From Eledone cirrhosa (taxonomy: Eukaryota): a stretch of 64,000 nucleotides of DNA. The DNA is taken from positions 30,814,001 through 30,878,000 of the forward strand of contig OZ024759.1 of NCBI GenBank assembly GCA_964016885.1, written 5' to 3'. A program made the translations under genes and the position numbers. Positions 5,876 through 63,996 of the stretch are shown here, one piece after another (positions within the stretch are counted from its first letter, which is position 1; the number at the start of each line of letters is the position of its first letter). The notes below the pieces were generated by a model, which was given only the letters and a program-made list of their open reading frames with translations, was not told the DNA's origin and searched no databases.

Positions 5876-6054
5876 TTCGTTATATATATATATATATATA
5901 TATAGACATATAGATTTTTATAGATTTTTATCTCTCTATTTTCAATGACCCATCAGACTATGCTCGTTCTTGCATATGTATCAATGACATCGAATCCTCC
6001 TATATAGTAACGGTTCTACATGGTTAAAAACATCTGACCCTGATGATTCTTTTG

Positions 6055-6720
6055 CCGTCTCCAACGGCTCCTATGACAGTGCTGATATTTGTAATCTTAT
6101 CGGATTATACATCCTTCATACGCTAAAATCTAAATGCCCCAACCATTCCTTTGGTCTATACCGTGACGGCGGACTTTCGTTTTCACATGATTGAAACGGA
6201 CAGACTCTGGACAAACTTCGTAAAAATTTAATTTAGTGCAGTAAGACTTTAAATTATGGTAGATTCTTTTTCTTTAGGAATCGGTTGGCAAATTCCCAAA
6301 CTTCATTCGCTTGCTGTGTGGGGTGGGGTGGCCCTCGTCAAATCGGACCAAATAAACAATGTTTCCATTGGTCTTTCCATTGCTGATACTATCTACCGAT
6401 CGCAACTTATTGGCAGAAAGAGCAACATGAAATATAGTGTCTTGTTGAAGGACACAATGCATCACTCGGTCCGAGATTTGAACACGCAACCTCACGATTG
6501 CGAATCCAACTCTCCAACCACTAAACCACGTCCCTTCATGGTTGACACAAATCTTACTAATGCACATTTTCTAGATGTGAACTTGGATTTAACAAATGCT
6601 TCGTATAAACCATACAATAAGCCGAACGAGAAATTGCCTCATTAATATAGCCTCATGCGGGTATTTTTTTTAGATCTATTAGATAGAAATTTCCCACCAC
6701 AACAACATAGATATAGTAAA
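6055..6720 (+). pseudogene. Penelope-like reverse transcriptase fragment interrupted by a SINE
   Basis: GSYDSADICNLIGLYIL...GLYRDGGL, then after the insert TNL..AHFLDVNLDL.NASYKPYNKPN. This is similar to PLE RT motifs (GSYDGAE, GLYRDDGL, FLDV). Confidence 0.65.
6325..6535 (-). mobile_element. tRNA-derived SINE (family B) nested in the Penelope RT fragment
   Basis: Homologous to 4205-4432, with a tRNA-like head on the minus strand. Confidence 0.6.
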
Positions 6721-10982: not shown

Positions 10983-11072
<90 letters not shown>

Positions 11073-11075
<3 letters not shown>

Positions 11076-11162
11076 TTAATATAGATGAGATTCTACAGGA
11101 CCAGAACTGTTTCACTCATTAGAAACCATCAGGTTACCTCCGATTCAACCCGGAATAACGTA
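11073..11162 (-). mobile_element. Internally deleted copy of hammerhead element family H1
   Basis: Matches 30817-30950 but lacks about 45 bp including the 5' strand of stem I. The core reads CTGATGG. Confidence 0.75.
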
Positions 11163-23426: not shown

Positions 23427-23554
<128 letters not shown>

Positions 23555-23636
23555 GTTATTCCGGGTTGAATCGGAGGTAACCACAGTAAGTAAGGTACTC
23601 AATACATAGCAGAGTATAACAGTTTTAATATAGATG

Positions 23637-23687
23637 AGATTCTACAGGACTAGAACTGTTTCATTCATTAGAAATCATCAGGAATCT
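23637..23687 (-). ncRNA. Type I hammerhead ribozyme (H1)
   Basis: AGATTC-CTGATGA-tTTC taat GAAt-GAA-ACAG ttctagtc CTGT-A-GAATCT. Confidence 0.75.
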
Positions 23688-23736
23688 GATTCCTGATGAT
23701 TTCTAATGAATGAAACAGTTCTAGTCCTGTAGAATC
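23688..23736 (+). ncRNA. Type I hammerhead ribozyme (H1)
   Basis: GATTC-CTGATGA(23693)-tTTCtaatGAAt-GAAACAG...CTGTA(23731)-GAATC. Confidence 0.75.
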
Positions 23737-23749
23737 TCATCTATATTAA

Positions 23750-23816
<67 letters not shown>

Positions 23817-30781: not shown

Positions 30782-30812
<31 letters not shown>

Positions 30813-30816
30813 TATA

Positions 30817-30948
30817 GTTTTAATATAGATGAGATTCTACAGGACTAGAACTGTTTCATTCTTTAGAAATCATCAGGAATCTTTTATACTCTGCTATGTA
30901 TTGAGTACCTTACTTACTGTGGTTACCTCCGATTCAACCCGAAATAAC

Positions 30949-30950
<2 letters not shown>
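30817..30950 (-). mobile_element. Full-length hammerhead element H1 (about 134 bp) between two (TA)n tracts
   Basis: Bounded by TA repeats on both sides, with multiple copies in the window. Confidence 0.85.
30832..30882 (-). ncRNA. Type I hammerhead ribozyme (H1)
   Basis: AGATTC-CTGATGA-tTTC taaa GAAt-GAA-ACAG ttctagtc CTGT-A-GAATCT. Confidence 0.78.
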
Positions 30951-30997
<47 letters not shown>

Positions 30998-31000
<3 letters not shown>

Positions 31001-31052
31001 TTAATATAGATGAGATTCTACAGGACTAGAACTGTTTCATTCTTTAGAAATC
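30998..31052 (-). mobile_element. Truncated tandem H1 copy
   Basis: Identical to 30817-30871 and stops before the CTGATGA core is complete. Confidence 0.8.
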
Positions 31053-31272
31053 TTTATTATATATATTTCAAGGGGACTGTGTTGTTTTTTCACTACGTCA
31101 TCATCAGACAAATTATATGTAATAAAGTATATATTATATATTATTCAAAATATTCTCATAATCAAAATATATACTTTATTACATATAATTTGTCTGATGA
31201 CGACGTAGTGAAAAAACAACACAGTCCCTTTGAAATATATATAATAAAGTATATATTTTGATTATGAGAATA
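31053..31272. repeat. Inverted repeat with a hammerhead-like fold in each arm
   Basis: Arms at about 31053-31135 and 31164-31248. The plus arm reads ataatttgt-CTGATGA...GAA-ATATATAT-A-ataaagtat; stem II pairs poorly. Confidence 0.6.
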
Positions 31273-31664: not shown

Positions 31665-32142
31665 AATATGCGTGAATTAACCATTGTTTAAATATGATTA
31701 GATGTTTAATTAATCATTTAAAAATTGAGATCAATATATTTAAAATTGGGATCTATATATTAAGAAATCCATATATTACTAGAGAACTACATATCATATA
31801 ATACGTATACACACGCAAAAATACATATAAATATATATACACACTTATAAAATACATATACATATCTAACTACGTATATAATATATACACACTCTATCTA
31901 TATCTTTCTCTCTCTGTTGTTTTGGTATCTCTCTCTCTCTCTCTCTTTTCCCTCTCTCTCTCTTTTTCTCTCTCTCCTTCTTTATCTTTCTCTTTCTCCG
32001 TAACGCAACGGCTTATTTTAAAAATAAAAATATCCAATACTAATAATAATATAATTAAAGCTACAACTCCACTATCCGGGAGCTTCCAACAGTAATGGTT
32101 TAAGGGTATGTCAATATTTATTTATAAAACTGATTTATATTA

Positions 32143-32207
32143 TATTTTATCTGATGAAAGCACACCATAATTTAACTTGGTGTCCTTGAAATATGTATAA
32201 TGAAATA
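32143..32207 (+). ncRNA. Type I hammerhead ribozyme
   Basis: TATTTTAT-CTGATGA-AAGcACACCA taatttaact TGGTGTcCTT-GAA-ATATGTAT-A-ATGAAATA. Stem I is 8 bp with one GU, stem II pairs 9 of 10, and AATAAA overlaps the end. Confidence 0.72.
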
Positions 32208-32755: not shown

Positions 32756-35700
32756 CTATAGTCTGATGTAGAGTGAAGGCCCATTCACACGGGCCATTCT
32801 CGCCACTTTCACCCATCTTTCATAGAAACGGCTGGGGTGCAGCACCTCTCTCTCCATCCTGATCCTTCTTCCGAAATGATATCGGAAGAAACGGACCAGT
32901 TGTTGGCCAGAGAGAAAGGTGCCCGACCTCAGTCCTTTCAGACGCGTCCACCATACAACCTCTTTCGCCATGGCTATTACGCACAGAAACACCGCCTCTG
33001 CTTCATCTTTGAAGGGGGGAGGCGGCTTGATCATTACAATAGACTCGGTGGTCAACCGGATCGGTCCCACCCTTGACAGCAGTTGTTCGACATAGCCCCA
33101 CAGATCGGCTACGCCCGAGCAGTGTACTAATGCGTGTGCAACGGTTTCCTCGTCGCACACGCATCTGGGACAGATCTTTTTGGCGGGGTCCCTACCCGGG
33201 CGCCCGTGTCTGTAGAGCCTTTCTCGAACGGGTAAAGCCCCTCGGTAGCACTGCCAGGCCAGGGACTTCTGGAAGTTGTCCATAGGTCCCGGGCTGAATG
33301 TCCTACCGAAAAGGCTGGCCAGTTCGTCCTCCTCCATGTCTAGGGCTTCTCCGAGGGCGTCGTCGCACCTGCTGCGTACCAGCCCTCTATAGAATGTTGC
33401 GGTGGAGTCTCCACTGATAACCGGATCCGCCTGCCAGAGGGCGGTGAGCGCCTGGGCACACTCAGTGTGCCAGGCGCCCAGTTTTCTCGGTCTTTGCTTG
33501 ACCCAGGATTGCAGCTCGGTGAGTGAGACGAGTCTGGGAAAGGTTCGTCTCACAAACGAGGCCCACACCGGTTGTCCGGTGAGGAATACGTAGAGGTGCC
33601 GTAGCCTTAATGCGTGTTTACGCATCATTAGCCACGGCATCCCCAGCCCTCCTTTCGAAGGGTGTTGACAGCAGATGGATCTCCTCACCATAGGAGCCCG
33701 CCTCTTCCAAAGGAATTGGAAGAGCGCGCGCTCCATCTTGGTGAGGGTTTCCCTTGGGCAGGGCACTACGGTCAGGCGGTAGTAGATGACGGACGCTATG
33801 TAGGTGTTCGCCACCTCCGCCCGACCTTTCAGGGATAGTTTGCAACTGGCCCACTTCTGGGTCAGTGCAAACACTCTGTTCGTAACCTCCGCCCAGTTTT
33901 TCTCCACCTGGAGGTCCGGTCCGAACCAGACCCCGAGCAACTTCACCGGGCCCTCCGTCCAGCGTCCGACGACGCTATCGGAGGGCATCGGTCTGCCCCT
34001 CCACGTGCCGAGTTGCAAACCGATCGACTTGTCCCGGTTCAGCTTAGCCCCTGTGAACTTTTCGTACTCCTCCAGTAAGGTGCCGACCGCCTCGATTTCG
34101 GAGGCCGTCGACACCATTACTGTCACGTCATCGGCGTAGGCCGACACCGCTTTCCGCAATCCCGGTTCCAAAGGGATGCCCTGCAACAACTCCAACTTCC
34201 GCAGTAGTGGCTCGAGAGTCAATACATACAGAAGGGAGGAGAGAGGGCACCCTTGTCGGATGGACCGCGCGATTTTGAACGGCTCCGAGAGGTAGCCGTT
34301 CACCTTGACCCTAGAGCAGATGCGGCTGCTGTGCATAGCAGTGATCCAGCCCCTGAAAACGGCTCCGAAGCCTGCCGCCGCTAGCACCGCATCCAGGTAA
34401 CCATGGTCGACCCTATCGAACGCCTTAGATTGATCCAAGTTGATCAGAGCCCCACCAAAGCCGGGTTCGTTCCCAACCCTCTCTATGATGTATCGCATGA
34501 GGTGGAGGTTGTCATGGATGGACCTGGACGGGATAGCGCATGTCTGCGCATCTCCCACCAGGTTGCCCACGACAAGCGCCAACCTCTTTGCTAGCACCTT
34601 GGCCAAAATCTGTAACTCTGTATTTAGCAGTGTTATGGGCCTGAAGTTACTTATTTCGTCCCCCTTGTTCTCGTCCTTCCTCACTAGCGTGACTACGCCC
34701 TTGGTCACAGTACAGGGAATTCTCCCGTTCTGTTGCCAGTTGCAGTAGACCGCCTCGAGGAGATCGGGGAACAAGTCCGGCATAGCTAGATATAATTCGT
34801 AAGGAAGACCATCGAGACCCGGGGATTTGCGTTTGCCGCATTGGCTCAGCACGTCCTCTATCTCAGCGGCCGAAATCGGCTCCTCGCAGGACTTCGCCTC
34901 CCTGTCCGAGAGGCGCGGCAGGCCGTCGAGGTATGGACCGAAGTCCACGTTCCCAACCGGCTCCCCGCCCCTCCCGAACAGTCGGGCAAAGTGCCTTTGA
35001 AAGGCCTCACACATCTGCTTAGGCTCAAGAATCGCCCGTCCATCCAGGTCTCGCAAAGACCGGATGGTGGATTTAGTTCCACTGTTGGCCTCTGTCACGC
35101 GGGCCCAGCTAACAGCTTTGGTCCCCTCGTTCCCTAGAGCACGTATTTTACTTCGGACAACGCAGCCTTCGTGCTTCGCGTCGAAAAACTGGCTCAAAGC
35201 CGTTCTCGACGCTAGCACTCTGGCCACGTCGCCGCTTCTAATTGCCTCTTCTACTCTATCTATTAGCTCCCTTTCCTTCCTATTCCTATCCGCAGCTAGA
35301 ACCTTACTAAATTCTATCGAGACTACTCTAATCTCTCTCTTTAGAGATACCCACCACCTGCTGTTGACGATCGCTCCAGTCAACCGTTCCTTAACTAACG
35401 TACTAATCCGATTCCTGTAGGCTCTACTTGCCGGCAAGGACAAGTTGAGCTTCCAGTAACCGGGGCCCTGTCTATGAGTTCTGTCAAGGTTGACCATGCA
35501 GGTCACTAATTTGTGGTCTGAATAGCCAACAATGCGCATTTTTGGACAACTTAAAAAGTCCTTATCCTTAATTCTAACTAAGAACCTATCTAGGTACGAC
35601 CTAGATGATCCGCTACGATTTGCCCAAGTCCAGGTTGGCGCAGTCGGAAAATCTAGTCGATATCTATCGGCCAGGTCAAATCGACCGATTAACCCTTTGA

Positions 35701-36193
35701 GGCTATTACACCCCTCTCTATCGGGGCAGGCCCCTACGTAGTCCCAGCGTGCATCTAGGATACCATTCCAGTCCCCCACTAATAGCAAGGAGCGGGACGT
35801 CCCTAGAAAAGTTTCCAGACGATGGAAGAAGTCCGGCCGCATTGACCCGAAAGGGCCGTAGGCGGCTACCAACCTAAACGCTCCGCCTTTACCACTGCCA
35901 AGGTCCAGAACCACTAGTCGACCCTCCGGGTCCAAATGTACCATCTGTGTTGCGAGACCCAGATGTTTTTGCAGCAGAACGACAACTCCACCCCCACCTC
36001 CAGGCTGACAGAGAGATGCGTGCATCTCAAAGTCATCAAAGGTGGGGGCCAGCTGTCGCACGCTGCTGATCCGGGCCTCGCAAATAACCATCACATCTAT
36101 ACGTTGTGACCTGAGGTCATTTAGAAGCATTGCTTGCTTCCAAGTTGAGCCCAGGCCACGCGCATTTAAACAGCCTACTCTTAGCATAGCCAT
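32756..36193 (-). CDS. LINE ORF2: APE endonuclease, reverse transcriptase and C-terminal Cys/His domain (first ATG 36193; frame open from 36217)
   Basis: Motifs CLNARG, GDWN, SDH, GYWKLN, KSPGLDG, RPITLLN, DQSKAFDRV, RQGCPLS, YADD and CPRC...HALVHC. Confidence 0.95.
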   Translation of the reverse strand: MAMLRVGCLNARGLGSTWKQAMLLNDLRSQRIDVMVICEARISSVRQLAPTFDDFEMHASLCQPGGGGGVVVLLQKHLGLATQMVHLDPEGRLVVLDLGSGKGGAFRLVAAYGPFGSMRPDFFHRLETFLGTSRSLLLVGDWNGILDARWDYVGACPDREGCNSLKGLIGRFDLADRYRLDFPTAPTWTWANRSGSSRSYLDRFLVRIKDKDFLSCPKMRIVGYSDHKLVTCMVNLDRTHRQGPGYWKLNLSLPASRAYRNRISTLVKERLTGAIVNSRWWVSLKREIRVVSIEFSKVLAADRNRKERELIDRVEEAIRSGDVARVLASRTALSQFFDAKHEGCVVRSKIRALGNEGTKAVSWARVTEANSGTKSTIRSLRDLDGRAILEPKQMCEAFQRHFARLFGRGGEPVGNVDFGPYLDGLPRLSDREAKSCEEPISAAEIEDVLSQCGKRKSPGLDGLPYELYLAMPDLFPDLLEAVYCNWQQNGRIPCTVTKGVVTLVRKDENKGDEISNFRPITLLNTELQILAKVLAKRLALVVGNLVGDAQTCAIPSRSIHDNLHLMRYIIERVGNEPGFGGALINLDQSKAFDRVDHGYLDAVLAAAGFGAVFRGWITAMHSSRICSRVKVNGYLSEPFKIARSIRQGCPLSSLLYVLTLEPLLRKLELLQGIPLEPGLRKAVSAYADDVTVMVSTASEIEAVGTLLEEYEKFTGAKLNRDKSIGLQLGTWRGRPMPSDSVVGRWTEGPVKLLGVWFGPDLQVEKNWAEVTNRVFALTQKWASCKLSLKGRAEVANTYIASVIYYRLTVVPCPRETLTKMERALFQFLWKRRAPMVRRSICCQHPSKGGLGMPWLMMRKHALRLRHLYVFLTGQPVWASFVRRTFPRLVSLTELQSWVKQRPRKLGAWHTECAQALTALWQADPVISGDSTATFYRGLVRSRCDDALGEALDMEEDELASLFGRTFSPGPMDNFQKSLAWQCYRGALPVRERLYRHGRPGRDPAKKICPRCVCDEETVAHALVHCSGVADLWGYVEQLLSRVGPIRLTTESIVMIKPPPPFKDEAEAVFLCVIAMAKEVVWWTRLKGLRSGTFLSGQQLVRFFRYHFGRRIRMEREVLHPSRFYERWVKVARMARVNGPSLYIRL

Positions 36194-36217
36194 GTTGGTG
36201 GTGAAGAGAAAAGGCAC

Positions 36218-37999
36218 TTACCTCTCTGCGTCCCGGGTATCGGGCTGCACAATTTCCATTAGGGTGGGGGATGGGTTGTTGGGTGGGGTGGTGGTTTGTG
36301 GAAGTGTGGGGGCATCAGTGTGTTGTGTGGTTGGGGAGCTTGGAGTTGTGAGGGTGTTTGGGGAGGGGGTGGGATAGTTTTTTAGGAGGACTCGGTTAAT
36401 GGGCCCGACGCAGGGGGGACCCACGTCCTCTTTAAAATTGTTTTTTAAAGTTTTATAGGTGTCCTGTGGGGCCTTAATCATTTTGAGGTGGGGGAAATCC
36501 CCTGCCTGGGTGAAGTTAGGCCCTTGTGTTTTTATTAGATTGTTGTTGTACACAATGTTTAACAGTTTTTTGTTTCTTGTATTTATGTATGTGTATGCAT
36601 GTTTTTGTTTTTGTGTGGTGTTTTTTGTTTGCTGTTGTGAGCTCTTTTGTGTTGGTGTCAGTGTTATGTTTTGGGGAGGGGTTTTTTTCATTTGTGTGTC
36701 TGAGGTGTGTTTTCTTTTTTTTCTTTTGATTGTGTGGAAGTGCTCCTCCTCGTCTGACGACGAACTAGGGTCATCTTCCGCGTTGGAGGGGAGGGGTATA
36801 TTTTCGGGTTGTGTTTGCGGTACGGGTGTTTTGGAAATTGTTTTTGTTTTTTGAGTGGAGGGGATGGGTTGGACATTGTTTTGTTTTGGTTTGAGCTGTG
36901 GTGGTTGTTTTTGTAGTGGTTGTTGTGGTGATTGTGTTGGTTGTGCAGTTGTTGGTGGTGTAGGCAGGATTGGGGTTTTCTTATTAAGTTGGGGACAGAC
37001 AGCCCTCAGGTGACCTCTGGTTCCGCAGAGGTAACACGAGGGCCGTCTACCCTCAACGGTAATGTTGATGAAGGTTAGATCATCCAGTATGACGCGTTCA
37101 GGGATCTGGGCGATCCTTTCGGGCCTCATTTGAACTACAAGTTCGAGGCTCGTTCCACTGAACGCGTCACCCGATGCCTTTCCCATGGACACCAGCATGT
37201 CATCCTCCAGGTCCAGAAAACCTGTCAAAACCCACCATATGTCCATAATCGGCAGGATGGTGTGGATTTTTATTTTTTGTGTTCTTCTACCCATGTACGT
37301 AGGGTAGAAGGTGTATGCGGTGGATGTGATTGGTTTGATGGACAGTTTCACTGCTGTGTCCCTGTCCTTCATGAGAATGGATAGACTCCCGTAGAGTCTA
37401 TCCTTCTGAATGAAGGTGATGTCCTTCATGACGTCTTTTAAAACCAGCTCTATCTCGCTCTGTGATGGTTGAGCTGGTTTTTTACTTTTGTTCGAGATTG
37501 TCCTAAACATGACCGTGTTTAGGAGTCTCTGGCTTTTTAGTTCCGGGGGGGAATGGATTGTGAATGAACCATTTTCCCCGTACACTATATATTTTTTCGC
37601 ATCCGCCAGTAGCTCCTTCGCTTTTGTTATATCTACTGGCAGATAGTCGAGGGTTTTCCTTGTCGTCTCGGCGAAGGAGAAATTTTGTTTGTTTGTGTTG
37701 TTGTTGTCGTTGGTGGTGTTGTTGTTATCATTGTTGTTGTTGTCACCGTTATTGGTCTTGTTGTTGTTATTGTTATTGTTATTGGTGTTGTTTTCTACCG
37801 TCGCATTGTTGTTGTTGTTGCTGTTGGTTCTTTGGGTTGTTGCCATGGTAACGTCAAGTTGTCGGTTAACAGGTGGAGAGAATTCTTCCTCTGGCTGACC
37901 TATCTTCTTGACCTCTGCTACTGTGACAGTGGCAGGGGGAAGCTGTAAGTTCATCTTCCCCTTTCCTCCTTCGAATTTTGGTGAAGAAGCTTCGGCCAT
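36218..37999 (-). CDS. LINE ORF1, gag-like nucleic-acid-binding protein with a CCHC knuckle
   Basis: 593-aa ORF directly upstream of ORF2 containing CYLCGTRGHLRAVC (CX2CX4HX4C). Confidence 0.88.
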   Translation of the reverse strand: MAEASSPKFEGGKGKMNLQLPPATVTVAEVKKIGQPEEEFSPPVNRQLDVTMATTQRTNSNNNNNATVENNTNNNNNNNNKTNNGDNNNNDNNNTTNDNNNTNKQNFSFAETTRKTLDYLPVDITKAKELLADAKKYIVYGENGSFTIHSPPELKSQRLLNTVMFRTISNKSKKPAQPSQSEIELVLKDVMKDITFIQKDRLYGSLSILMKDRDTAVKLSIKPITSTAYTFYPTYMGRRTQKIKIHTILPIMDIWWVLTGFLDLEDDMLVSMGKASGDAFSGTSLELVVQMRPERIAQIPERVILDDLTFINITVEGRRPSCYLCGTRGHLRAVCPQLNKKTPILPTPPTTAQPTQSPQQPLQKQPPQLKPKQNNVQPIPSTQKTKTISKTPVPQTQPENIPLPSNAEDDPSSSSDEEEHFHTIKRKKRKHTSDTQMKKTPPQNITLTPTQKSSQQQTKNTTQKQKHAYTYINTRNKKLLNIVYNNNLIKTQGPNFTQAGDFPHLKMIKAPQDTYKTLKNNFKEDVGPPCVGPINRVLLKNYPTPSPNTLTTPSSPTTQHTDAPTLPQTTTPPNNPSPTLMEIVQPDTRDAER

Positions 38000-38222
38000 T
38001 TAAAAAAATATTGACTTTTCAACAAGAAAAAACTTTTTTTTTTAACTATTTCGCCTAAAGGCGTAGAATATTTTGAGAGACTGACCAGATCAAAGTTTGA
38101 CCTGGCAGTCCCTCTACAAAATGGTACAAAATTTAAAGTTATCAGACAAGAATTTCTATAGAAATTTAAACAGAACTTACTCAGCAAGTTATACGCGTGT
38201 GTCCATCCCAGATGATATACGA

Positions 38223-48375: not shown

Positions 48376-48706
48376 AAAAAATAATAAGTACAGAATACGA
48401 TTGCTGATAATATTGGTGGTGGTGGTGAATTGTTAATACTAGAAATAAAGCCTTTTTGTACAGCCGACCATGTTATTCTTCAATCTTTCACTATTATTAC
48501 TCCAAGAATAACCTGCATAAGAAGTCTCGCGAACTCACTGCCTAACGATGGAAACCTCTTGTTGAGTCAAACAACACTGTACGTTAAAACTATCCACATT
48601 TTATCCCGGGTTCAATCGGGGCAAACCACAGGGGTAATCATCAGGAAGCTCTGATGCTTTCTCCGGAATGTATATGTGTGTGTGTGTGTGTGTATGAGTG
48701 TGTGTA

Positions 48707-53675: not shown

Positions 53676-53795
53676 TTTATCCCGGGTTCAATCGGGGGGT
53701 AACAACAGTAAGTAAGGTACTCAATACTCGTCTTTCTGATGATTTCTCCCGAATGAAACCATTCTAGTCCTGTAGAAGCCATTTCTATATTAAAT
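53676..53795 (+). mobile_element. Diverged H1 subfamily copy with a hammerhead core
   Basis: cttt-CTGATGA-tTTC tccc GAAt-GAAAC...GTA-gaag. Stem III is weakened. Confidence 0.65.
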
Positions 53796-55675: not shown

Positions 55676-55768
55676 ATGTATATATAAATGTATATATATA
55701 TATATATACATGTATACAATATATAAATGTACATCTATATATAAATGTATATAAGTTTTAATATAGAT

Positions 55769-55821
55769 GAGATTCTACAGGACTAGAACTGTTTCATTCT
55801 TTAGAAATCATCAGGAATCTC
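55769..55821 (-). ncRNA. Type I hammerhead ribozyme (H1); element truncated at the stem I edge
   Basis: GAGATTC-CTGATGA-tTTCtaaaGAAt-GAAACAG...CTGTA-GAATCTC, with a 7-bp stem I. Confidence 0.78.
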
Positions 55822-59373: not shown

Positions 59374-59458
59374 AAAAGGTAAACAGAAATAACAACACAA
59401 TCGGTACAGTATTTGGAAGGGATATATTAGGTTAACGCTTGATATAGCAGGAAGAGGG

Positions 59459-59494
59459 TCTTAACGTTTCGGACGCTAGTCCTTCATCAGAAGA
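59459..59494 (-). ncRNA. Minimal type I hammerhead with loopless palindromic stem III
   Basis: TCTT-CTGATGA-a-GGAC tagc GTCC-GAA-ACGT-T-AAGA. A decayed sister copy lies at 49086-49197. Confidence 0.72.
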
Positions 59495-59958
59495 AAGAAT
59501 GAGAAATAGAATAGATTAAGGGGACGGGCGGGATGTAATTGGAAAAAATGTCTTTAGATAAAAATAATAGGTCCATTTATGTTGACATCTCTTGCAAAAC
59601 TGTTGGTGTATATATATATATATATATACCTTTGTATCTTTACTCATTAAAACGTTCTACATAGTTGTTTAAACATAGGTTCTTCAACATATGAATTACC
59701 CTATTTGCTGGCCTATTGGACGCCCCATCCTATAAGACGTCCCTTGCTTTACAAGGGCATTTTTAAGGAAAAAAGGATTTTAGCACTTGATATATTTAGA
59801 GAGGTTCATGTTGTCCTAATACTGTCAAAACATGGTAAAACGCACTCACTGCTTGTGTGTATATATGTGTGTATGTGTGTATGTGCGTACATATACATAC
59901 ATACATACATACATACATACATACATACATACATACATACATACATACATACATACAT

Positions 59959-62030
59959 TATGTTCCCCACTCTTGGATGATAGAAGCCCTCCAACTTGCT
60001 AAAGTCCCAGACATTATTATCAGAGCCATAGAGAGGATGTCTTCTTCTTGGGCTACTATCCTAAGGTTAAAGACAGAGAGGGAGGACTCTATTTTCACTG
60101 ATAAAATAAAATATTGCAGGGGTATATTTCATGGGGACAGGCTCTCTGTGATATTATTCATCTTGTCATTAAACCCCTTGTCCTTTCTGCTCAAGAAATG
60201 TGAGGGATACATCATTGGCTCACAGGAGGACAGAAATACGAACCTAACCCATAATTTCTTTCTGGATGATCTGAAACTCTACGCCAAGAACATGGATGGG
60301 ATGAAGAAAAATCTTGACCTGATTACAACGTTCTCAAAGGATATAGGAATGGAGTTTGGCCAGGATAAATGCTCATAGATGACTGTAAAGCGGGGGAAAA
60401 CAACAACCCAATCTAGCAACATTGTCATCAATGGCCTAACTGTTTCACCGATATCTGATGAAGACTGCTACAGATACCTGGGGATAGATGAGAACATATC
60501 CTATAATGGTATCTGTAATAAAGAACGCGTAACCAAGGAATACTACACCCGATTAAGAAAGATCTGGTCATCGTTCCGATGATCTCTGCGCAAAACAAAA
60601 CAGTGGCTCACAATGTGTTTGCTGTGTCTGTCCTAACACCAACGTTTGGAATACTCAATTGGACGATAGACATCCGAGCAGTTGATGTTGGAACTCGAAA
60701 AATACTGAACAACACCGGAAACTTCCACATCAACAGTGACATAAACCGCCTTTACTTGAAACGTAAGCAGGGAGGCAGGGGCCTAACATCAATCCAGACA
60801 TTTGAATATCGCATCAAATCTCTCCGACAACATCTGCGAACCTCGAAGCGTAGGAGCCCGTTTCTCGAACATCTGCATGAAACAGATAAGATCATGAGAG
60901 TTGGGAAGGAACTCCTCGAGAGATATTCCCTGTGTGATAATCAAAAACTCACACCCAGGGATGTCGCAAAGCAGTATCGCAGTGAATCCATGGATGAAAA
61001 ACTGCATGGCTATCAGCAAAAAATCATGCATGGATATGTTGCCAGGAAGCTCCAGAGTGAGAGTAATATAGATAAGGAAAGTAGTCTTTCTTGGACCAAC
61101 GACCGCTATATTGGCTCCCACTTTGAAGGATACGCTTTTGCAATCCATGATTGATTCCCAAAAAGATAGGGATGCAGGCAAAACACCTAGATGTGATAAC
61201 AAGTGCAGACTCTGCAGAACTAACATCGAGGATATCACCCATGTCATCAACAGCTGTCCAAAGATGTCATCGCGGTACTATCTACCTATGAGGCATGATG
61301 TAGTGACCAAAACACTGAACAATGCAGTTCGTAAAAAAGATAGCCCCGAAAATAAACACATTAAAAGCTACAGCAATGTGGAAGAACTCCATGTACATAA
61401 TATGAAAGAGTACTGGTGGAATGTTCCAGTAAAAACCCCAATAAAATGCAAGCATAACAGACCAGATATTATGATATGGGACAGGGAGAAGAAAGCATGC
61501 ACAGTAGTGGAAATTAGCTGCCCAGCAGATGCCAATATAATATCAAAGATTAGTGGAAAGGAGAACATTTATGCAGAACTGATGAGAAATCTGCAGATAC
61601 TCCACCCTGATTATACCTTCAGATTTATACCTGTGATTATTGGGGCACTGGGATATGTTAGTAACTGCCTCAGTACAAATCTTGAGAAGCTGGGATTCAC
61701 TGGAACAGAAAGAACACAACTAGTTAGGAAATTACAAGTACAATCCATTAATGGAACAGTAAAAATATGTAAGACATTCCCAAAATTTTGCATCTAATAA
61801 TTGCATATACACATATACAGATGCAAAGCATATACACATGCACACATACAACTCAAAACATCCACATACACACATACAATAACATCCATATCTACACATG
61901 CATGCATATATGCATACATACATACCTACCTAGTTGATGTGTAAATTCCAATGAGAGAGTCTTGTGTCTATGTTAGAAAGCGACTCTCTCTCTATTGGTA
62001 AAACTTTGTGAAATTATAAAACCAGAAGAA
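59959..62030 (+). mobile_element. 5'-truncated R4/Dong-like non-LTR retrotransposon with RLE endonuclease, decayed, inserted in (TACA)n
   Basis: VPHSW, GIFHGDRLS, FLDDLKLY, YRYLG, GGRGL, CRLC...HVINSC, RHD, RPDI and VVEISCP motifs, with stops and frameshifts. (CATA)n lies on both flanks. Confidence 0.85.
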
Positions 62031-63939: not shown

Positions 63940-63956
63940 CAGAGATAACGAAAACT

Positions 63957-63996
63957 AATATAGAATTGGCTTCTACAAGACTAGAACTGTTTCATT
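63957..63996 (-). mobile_element. H1-family 3' fragment at the window end
   Basis: taatatagaattggcttctacaagactagaactgtttcatt matches the H1 3' end (53676 subtype). Confidence 0.6.

What the first reader, a model, noticed from the sequence alone, without database searches (positions are those of the whole stretch)
30817..30950. Family H1: a 134-bp TA-flanked element whose 3' half is a type I hammerhead
Seen: about eight copies or fragments (11073, 23552 twice, 30817, 30998, 48600, 53676, 55755, 63957). The fold has a 6-bp stem I AGATTC/GAATCT, core CTGATGA, stem II TTC/GAA with a variable loop (TAAT, TAAA, TCCC), a 4-bp stem III ACAG/CTGT and a GUA site. The loop varies while stem II is kept, and the 53676 subtype has a different stem I that still pairs (CTTT/GAAG). 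The 10.1-11.1 position is an unusual U-U in most copies. Inference: a young, high-copy solo-pLTR or retrozyme-like SINE.
Basis: partly seen in the sequence, partly recalled or inferred. Interest (0 to 1): 0.75.

Follow-up and report, generated by a model that had tools for sequence, protein, structure and literature searches.

The report
Penelope retrotransposon end-stub with hammerhead
The 134-base repeat is not an element of its own but two back-to-back pieces of the front end of a Penelope-type jumping gene; it carries a hammerhead RNA motif predicted to cut itself, and the family's copies suggest that the enzyme usually copies an uncut RNA up to its likely capped start.

Summary
The hammerhead is real as drawn, and all listed copies exist. 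The '134-bp element' is not the unit. It is an inversion product: +67 to +1 (hammerhead) fused to +136 to +68 ('tail') of a Penelope-like pLTR, inserted in (TA)n. This exact junction occurs 15 times in the genome; the native order 6,755 times. A full-length 6.0-kb parent has an intact 713-aa RT + GIY-YIG ORF with Hydra-clade motifs. U-U at 10.1-11.1 is the commonest state in published Hydra hammerheads (14 of 25). Stem I shows two compensatory changes between subfamilies. Mechanistic yield: 51 of 153 arms stop at +1 to +3, 30 nt behind a TATA box, often with an extra G; 2 of 153 stop at the cleavage site; both arms of an insertion come from the same RNA region (63 of 63). Short copies are therefore likely run-off copies of uncleaved, capped RNA primed from both target ends. 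Cleavage and transcription are untested. A 377-kb satellite of this hammerhead exists (the scan noted it, and similar stubs, before on other DNA). New member of a known kind.

The parts
30817..30882 (-). Arm 2 of the insertion: pLTR positions +1 (30882) to +66; begins at the predicted transcription start, ends at the +67 priming site in (TA)n
   Evidence: BLAST against a real promoter-linked copy
30832..30882 (-). Type I hammerhead: stem I 30882-30877/30837-30832, core 30876-30870, U10.1 30869, stem II 30868-30866/30861-30859, U11.1 30858, GAAA 30857-30854, stem III 30854-30851/30842-30839, loop III with CUAG palindrome 30850-30843; predicted cut between 30838 and 30837
   Evidence: sequence, descriptor scan, covariation
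30883..30951 (+). Arm 1: the 'tail', pLTR positions +68 to +136, inverted relative to arm 2; holds a TACTC/GAGTA hairpin; natively follows the hammerhead and precedes the ORF
30791..30816 (.). (TA)13 target flank
   Evidence: sequence
30950..30997 (.). (TA)24 target flank
   Evidence: sequence
30998..31052 (-). Second arm, +12 to +66, without stem I 5' strand and core; joined to a foldback of another hammerhead family
23552..23688 (-). Native order copy: hammerhead then tail (+1 to +136), 100% identical to the parent-type pLTR
23688..23750 (+). Inverted arm +2 to +64 of the same insertion (the commonest layout in the genome)
11072..11162 (.). Two-armed stub: +6 to +67 on minus (11133-11072, core A9 changed) and +106 to +136 on plus (11132-11162)
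55755..55820 (-). Single arm +1 to +66, complete hammerhead, G in front of +1
53676..53794 (.). Two-armed stub of the GGCTTY/GAAGCC subfamily: tail part on minus (53727-53676), +3 to +64 on plus (53732-53794)
48600..48670 (.). Degraded stub: tail end (48630-48600), +2 to +15 (48649-48636) and inverted +7 to +26 (48651-48670)
   Evidence: short pieces E 0.04
63956..63996 (-). Fragment +23 to +62 of the divergent subfamily

Best explanation
The 134-bp string is an inverted two-armed stub of the terminal repeat (pLTR) of an autonomous Hydra-clade Penelope-like retrotransposon, likely made when the element's enzyme primed reverse transcription from both ends of a cut (TA)n target on the 5' end of an uncleaved, likely capped transcript. 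Shown: the native order is CCAAT/TATA region, hammerhead (+1 to +51), tail (to +136), ORF (ATG +182); arms start at +60, +67 or +136/137 next to TA repeats; most short arms stop at +1 to +10; junctions carry microhomology or short fillers. Inferred: the TATA box at -30 starts transcription at +1, so the hammerhead is the very 5' end of the RNA; the GIY-YIG domain cuts (TA)n; two RT molecules start at the fixed internal sites and run off the cap after 60-136 nt, sometimes adding a G; the two cDNAs are trimmed and joined by microhomology-mediated end joining. At 30817 arm 1 stopped where arm 2 began, giving one non-overlapping copy of +1 to +136. The hammerhead is predicted to be weak or switched off in this RNA (U-U closing stem II; a competing hairpin with +52 to +70) and to cut only occasionally, where it would free unit-length RNAs that can circularise. 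Confidence about 0.95 for identity, about 0.65 for the run-off mechanism, about 0.5 for occasional cleavage in vivo.
For: Native junction 6,755 exact matches, finding's junction 15, run-on into the ORF leader 70. Full-length copy C1:14,211,283-14,205,252 with identical 66-nt repeats at both ends and an open 713-aa ORF with RWR, DKT, YRDD, CxCx5C, YIG, CxxC..E..N..CxH. In the first 90 of the native-junction places fetched: 78 of 90 end at +136/137, 81 of 90 abut TA, 63 of 90 have an inverted arm ending mostly at +60 (21) or +67 (25). 5' ends of 153 arms: 51 at +1 to +3, 34 at +4 to +10, 35 spread over -8 to -470, 2 at +45 to +47. Arm pairs: both upstream of -4 in 10, neither in 53, mixed in 0 (Fisher p 8e-12). 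TATAAAT at -30 in 37 of 50 promoter-linked copies and at the same spacing in the diverged subfamily. In that subfamily native -1 is C (448 matches, 30 of 30 checked scored native), yet G stands there in 299 and A/T in 335; of 30 checked each, 18 G and 14 A/T were not explained by the other arm or the promoter by script, so unexplained G is about twice A in a 66% AT genome. Stem I: 2 compensatory pairs, 41 cells, 96.6% of cells paired, slid controls 34-47%; lineage-level changes hit loop II and +52 onward, none of the core. Multimers with a private repeated junction in one two-armed insertion (191, 210, 259-nt units) fit a circular template.
Against: No RNA data: transcription, start site, cap and cleavage are not observed. 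No phylogenetic tree with reference PLEs was built. The extra G is modest (about 2:1 over A) and the script classes were noisy; in the main subfamily every G at -1 can also be read as templated from the other arm. The two compensatory changes are two events, not 41; stems II and III show no covariation. Pfam gives only a weak GIY-YIG match (E 0.012, below cut-off) and no RT match. The element is about 6 kb, twice the published Hydra size, and its tail is 70 nt, not 30-40. The 90 loci are all from one chromosome arm and were chosen for an intact native junction. Repeated template jumps could also make the multimers.
Confidence: 0.85

Rival explanations
1. The 134-bp string is a self-standing SINE-like or retrozyme master that is transcribed and copied as a unit.
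For: The best 30 BLAST places cover nearly the whole 134 bp at 90-99% in (TA)n.
Against: Those hits were ranked for this layout, and their inner junction varies from copy to copy. Exact junction 15 versus 6,755 native. The 5' half is antisense tail of the PLE. Of the first 30 tail-anchored loci only 4 have a tail arm stopping 3' of +45 joined to an inverted hammerhead arm, each at a different point.
Confidence: 0.03
2. Inverted arms arise by fold-back or self-priming of one cDNA or of an antisense template (as proposed for Adineta Penelope elements), not by priming from both target ends.
For: Proposed in PMC3846280 (passages). In 19 of 63 pairs the tail-bearing arm reaches further 5' than the inverted arm, as fold-back allows.
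Against: In 26 of 63 pairs the inverted arm holds sequence absent from the tail-bearing arm, and at 30817 the arms do not overlap at all, so neither can be a copy of the other. An antisense template does not explain the edge at +1 or the extra G.
Confidence: 0.12
3. The edge at +1 to +3 is not the RNA cap but a splice acceptor (TTTTTTGATACCCAG/) or an RT pause at the hammerhead, on a long read-through RNA.
For: The main subfamily has a pyrimidine run and CAG at -1 to +2; in D. virilis Penelope an intron ends at helix I (PMC4209133).
Against: No common upstream exon precedes the ends; the diverged subfamily has C/GG, no AG, at +1; RT moving 3' to 5' would meet stem I at +51, not +1; TATA spacing is kept across subfamilies.
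Confidence: 0.1
4. The hammerhead is efficiently cleaved in vivo and cleaved RNA is the normal template.
For: Core intact across subfamilies; +1 to +52 alone folds with stem I at probability 0.57-0.76; multimer insertions.
Against: 2 of 153 arms end at +45 to +47, and such ends coincide with the 6-nt stem I microhomology; in RNA of 66 nt or more stem I probability falls to 0.02 or less. PAc uses uncleaved RNA in vitro (PMC11167929).
Confidence: 0.1

Closest known systems
Hydra clade of EN+ Penelope-like elements (Craig et al. 2021, PMC8557442; sections 11 and 15, passages, and parts of the supplement read)
   Same: C-terminal GIY-YIG, RW[K/R], DKT, CxCx5C linker, CxxC and CxH around E and N, (TA)n target, type I hammerhead; U-U at 10.1-11.1 in 14 of 25 listed families; ACAG/CTGT stem III in 4.
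   Different: Loop III is 8 nt with a CUAG palindrome (1-3 nt there); element about 6 kb with about 3 kb of TG/TA repeats in the 3' UTR (under 3 kb there); full pLTR with TATA box resolved; the published Hydra-1_oBim has a different hammerhead and protein (read by eye).
PAc (Poseidon of Anolis; Frangieh et al. 2024, PMC11167929; parts 1-2 of 4 read)
   Same: Internal RT starts at fixed adjacent sites that bound the tail; both target strands cut and extended; AT-rich target; uncleaved RNA as template.
   Different: Three start sites here (+60, +67, +136), all upstream of the ATG and with 1-5 nt TA microhomology; PAc starts inside the ORF without homology and its ORF begins in the hammerhead.
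L1 twin priming and cap-derived G (PMC11702581, passages read)
   Same: Inverted arms joined by microhomology; extra G at 5' junctions of copies that reach the RNA 5' end.
   Different: In L1 the arms are adjacent and barely overlap and the second site is variable; here the sites are fixed and the arms usually copy the same 60 nt twice.
Metazoan non-LTR retrozymes (PMC7229834, passages; bioRxiv 10.64898/2026.07.22.740005, parts 1-2 of 5)
   Same: Type I hammerhead, link to PLE pLTRs; axolotl HHR_Amex2 also has U-U at the base of helix II and cleaves weakly as a monomer.
   Different: The finding is a monomeric inverted stub, not a tandem; tandem derivatives of this family exist elsewhere (78, 191, 210, 259, about 1,080 bp units).

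Membership tests
Type I hammerhead ribozyme | Core CUGANGA, GAAA, NUH in type I topology with three helices | tested here: met
Type I hammerhead ribozyme | Structure-preserving variation between lineages | tested here: met
   2 compensatory pairs in stem I; no lineage change in the core; two events only
Type I hammerhead ribozyme | G10.1-C11.1 pair | tested here: not met
   U-U; precedented in Hydra PLEs and axolotl HHR_Amex2
Type I hammerhead ribozyme | Self-cleavage | not testable with these tools
   no assay; fold disfavoured in longer RNA
EN+ Penelope-like element | Single ORF with RT and GIY-YIG between pLTRs | tested here: met
EN+ Penelope-like element | Inverted 5'-truncated pLTR and one-sided tail | tested here: met
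   63 of 90 loci; tail 70 nt rather than 30-40
Hydra clade | RWK, DKT, CxCx5C, CxxC/CxH motifs, C-terminal EN | tested here: met
   RWR, DKT, CNCLNKEAC, CDLC..E..N..CMH
Hydra clade | (TA)n insertion | tested here: met
   81 of 90
Hydra clade | Short element (under 3 kb, 'generally') | tested here: not met
   6,032 bp for the one full copy measured; ORF size is typical
Hydra clade | Monophyly in an RT tree | not tested
   named reference proteins were seen only in a paper supplement and were not used in computations
Non-LTR retrozyme | Tandem units each with a complete hammerhead | tested here: not met
   the 134-bp form is monomeric; neighbour at 30998 lacks the core. Met by other loci of the family
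Non-LTR retrozyme | Circular RNA | not testable with these tools
   no RNA reads
SINE | Fixed unit copied from a master | tested here: not met

The most novel reading that the evidence does not exclude
Penelope-like elements have a genomic 'strong-stop' product: the enzyme dimer primes both target ends on the capped 5' pLTR of one uncleaved RNA and runs off the cap, which explains inverted pLTR stubs and their thousand-fold excess over ORFs; the hammerhead sits exactly at the cap as a normally silent decapping switch, and its rare cleavage makes circles that seed retrozyme-like multimers (191-259 nt units seen).
Probability: 0.45. Interest if true: 0.65.

Novelty: new member of a known kind. 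Interest (0 to 1): 0.42.

Why it matters
What PLE hammerheads do and how inverted pLTRs and tails form are stated as open in Craig et al. 2021. This family offers thousands of young insertions, an intact ORF and exact coordinates (start +1, cut +45/46, RT starts +60, +67, +136), so both questions become testable in vitro. It also warns that short TA-flanked 'hammerhead SINEs' in animal genomes can be by-products of PLE insertion, and that tandem hammerhead arrays counted as active retrozymes can be neutrally drifting satellites.

Tried and rejected
Rfam on the whole window returned only microsatellite-driven miRNA matches in the 150 rows shown. A DNA search with the native order returned nothing because common words are skipped; patterns were used instead. 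No RNA holder listed; laid contigs say nothing on expression, but one joint led to the satellite. A first guess at the satellite junction found nothing. Searches had a poor reference or a coordinate offset and were redone. Cap-G in the main subfamily was set aside because stem I complementarity and templated TCAGGA explain it. Ends at the cleavage site as evidence of cleavage were rejected for the same microhomology reason. Selection on the satellite core: not found (p 0.19; distinct units p 0.30). Paper searches: 'hammerhead ribozyme' + 'octopus', 'Penelope-like' + 'twin priming' and searches listed no paper that, from title and abstract start, describes run-off at the cap for PLEs; most were seen as listings only, subscription papers and Repbase were not searchable, and bioRxiv supplements are closed. 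PMC9578709 (passages) and PMC2377424 (passages; D. virilis promoter is TATA-less) added little.

Full report
Observation. All listed places carry family sequence, but only five pass a hammerhead descriptor; the rest are fragments. Rfam has no match above threshold and the motif is not the minimum-energy fold. The window lies in a 3.0-Gb animal-type genome; I did not identify the organism.

The unit. The best BLAST copies of the 134-bp string sit in (TA)n, but the join between its halves differs from copy to copy. At 23552-23750 the same halves stand in another order. A pattern for that order has 6,755 exact matches, the finding's junction 15, the tail end 8,565. Following the native order upstream gives a region with CCAAT and TATAAATA, and downstream (70 exact run-ons) an ORF. 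One copy, C1:14,211,283-14,205,252, has identical 66-nt repeats at both ends, an open 713-aa ORF and about 3 kb of TG/TA repeats before a 460-bp promoter region. The protein has RWR, DKT, YRDD, CxCx5C, YIG and CxxC..E..N..CxH, the traits given for the Hydra clade (PMC8557442 section 11); 1,403 homologues of similar length were found, none of the 120 listed with a name; Pfam matched only GIY-YIG weakly. In 390 kb sampled at even steps there were 3 loci, so the window (about 7 insertions in 64 kb) is unusually dense.

The hammerhead. In 84 promoter-linked copies, alleles carried by four or more copies fall at +1, +3, +18 to +21, +40, +49 and +51 onward, none in the core. On the 48 distinct sequences 96.6% of cells pair, and pairs 1-51 (AU/GC) and 3-49 (AU/CG) change on both sides; these are two events between subfamilies, and stems II and III do not covary. 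U-U at 10.1-11.1 is found in 14 of 25 Hydra families in the supplement of PMC8557442 (my count) and in axolotl HHR_Amex2, which cleaves weakly (PMC7229834). Loop III is longer than in published Hydra motifs and holds a CUAG palindrome that would allow dimers (cofold -12.8 kcal/mol against -1.4 for the hairpin). Stem I forms with probability 0.57-0.76 in +1 to +52 but 0.02 or less once +66 is included.

Ends of insertions. I fetched 90 of the first 100 listed native-junction places (all on C1). Tail-bearing arms end at +136/137 in 78 of 90; 63 of 90 have an inverted arm, ending at +60 in 21 and +67 in 25; 81 of 90 abut TA; junctions show microhomology in 25, blunt joins in 6, fillers in 32. Of 153 arms, 51 begin at +1 to +3, 34 at +4 to +10, 10 at -7 to -1, 35 further upstream, 21 at +11 to +44 and 2 at +45 to +47. 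TATAAAT lies at -30 in 37 of 50 promoter-linked copies and likewise in the GGCTTY subfamily (258 matches). Both arms reach upstream in 10 pairs, neither in 53, one only in 0, so both copy the same RNA region. In 26 of 63 the inverted arm holds sequence that the other lacks, which excludes simple fold-back for those. In the GGCTTY subfamily native -1 is C; with -2 not A, counts at -1 were C 448, G 299, A/T 335. Of 30 loci each, the script left 18 G, 8 A and 6 T unexplained; by eye five more G cases abut the TA target directly against one A case. An extra G marks cap copying in L1 (PMC11702581); terminal transferase activity would also need a free RNA 5' end at +1. This evidence is moderate.

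Mechanism. Shown: layout, fixed start sites, 5' edge, concordant arms. Inferred: transcription from +1, double-strand cutting of (TA)n, two RT starts as in PAc (PMC11167929), run-off at the cap, end joining. The finding is the case where arm 1 (+136 to +68) stopped where arm 2 (+67 to +1) began. Cleavage of the 5' hammerhead would remove the cap and cleavage of the 3' one would remove the start sites, so a weak, context-silenced ribozyme fits; two-armed insertions with a private junction repeated in tandem (191, 210 and 259-nt units) suggest circles and so occasional cleavage and ligation, though repeated template jumps are not excluded.

Derivatives. A strand bias in counts and a joint in DNA contigs led to a satellite of 78-bp hammerhead units at C28:30,496,770-30,873,662, about 4,830 units, whose left end is an ordinary two-armed insertion. 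In 1,755 units the core is not better kept than other positions (0.024 against 0.032; p 0.19), 1,351 of 1,780 keep the core. I found it before consulting the scan's notes, which already hold it (e1-8665278).

Verdict. A real hammerhead in the pLTR of a new family of a known clade; the 134-bp 'element' is a rare insertion by-product. The value lies in the end statistics, which give a testable model of how PLE stubs form. Interest 0.42.

Noticed in passing
G000:C28:30,496,770-30,873,662 (L297, L316-L345): 377-kb satellite of about 4,830 78-bp units, each this hammerhead (-12 to +66), grown from one two-armed insertion whose filler made a TATATTAAAA direct repeat; no selection on the core detected; two 498-bp gaps near its right end and another satellite beyond.
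   Followed up: yes
L295 (G000:C1:350,200,2xx): Seven full units and a partial unit of the same satellite on another chromosome, with the array's unit variants and no TA flanks or PLE start sites: likely a DNA-level transfer.
   Followed up: partly
L289-L290 (G000:C1:83.677-83.690 Mb): Twelve tandem units of about 1.08 kb, each promoter + hammerhead + tail + simple repeats.
   Followed up: partly
L350, L349, L162: Two-armed or TA-flanked insertions with tandem 191-, 210- and 259-nt units sharing a private junction between the ORF start and the promoter end: nascent retrozyme-like multimers.
   Followed up: partly
L151: +176 of one copy joined to G plus +1 of the next: looks like a template jump from the RNA 5' end.
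   Followed up: no
window 31053-31260 and 32140-32200: Another hammerhead-like family with long stem II and AT-rich stem III, as an inverted pair at 31107 (-) and 31194 (+), and a relative at 32151 (+).
   Followed up: no
window 59455-59500 (minus) and 59293 (+): Further CTGATGA...GAAAC/T motifs; the one at 59490 reads like a minimal hammerhead of a different repeat family.
   Followed up: no
window 5991-6642: Broken RT fragment related to P0001 (45-59% identity), split by another repeat.
   Followed up: partly
window about 33,000-38,000 (minus) and 59,800-61,800 (+): Long ORFs of two non-LTR retrotransposons (593 and 1,153 aa stop-to-stop with an endonuclease-like start; RT-like fragments); seen in translations only.
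   Followed up: no
L130/L136 3' UTR: About 3 kb of TG/TA simple repeats travel as part of the element; a GTGAGT donor-like word lies about 90 nt after the stop codon.
   Followed up: no
window 30887-30907 (+): TACTC/GAGTA hairpin just behind the +67 start site, present in all three subfamilies (copies were selected by a pattern for it, so this is no test of conservation).
   Followed up: partly
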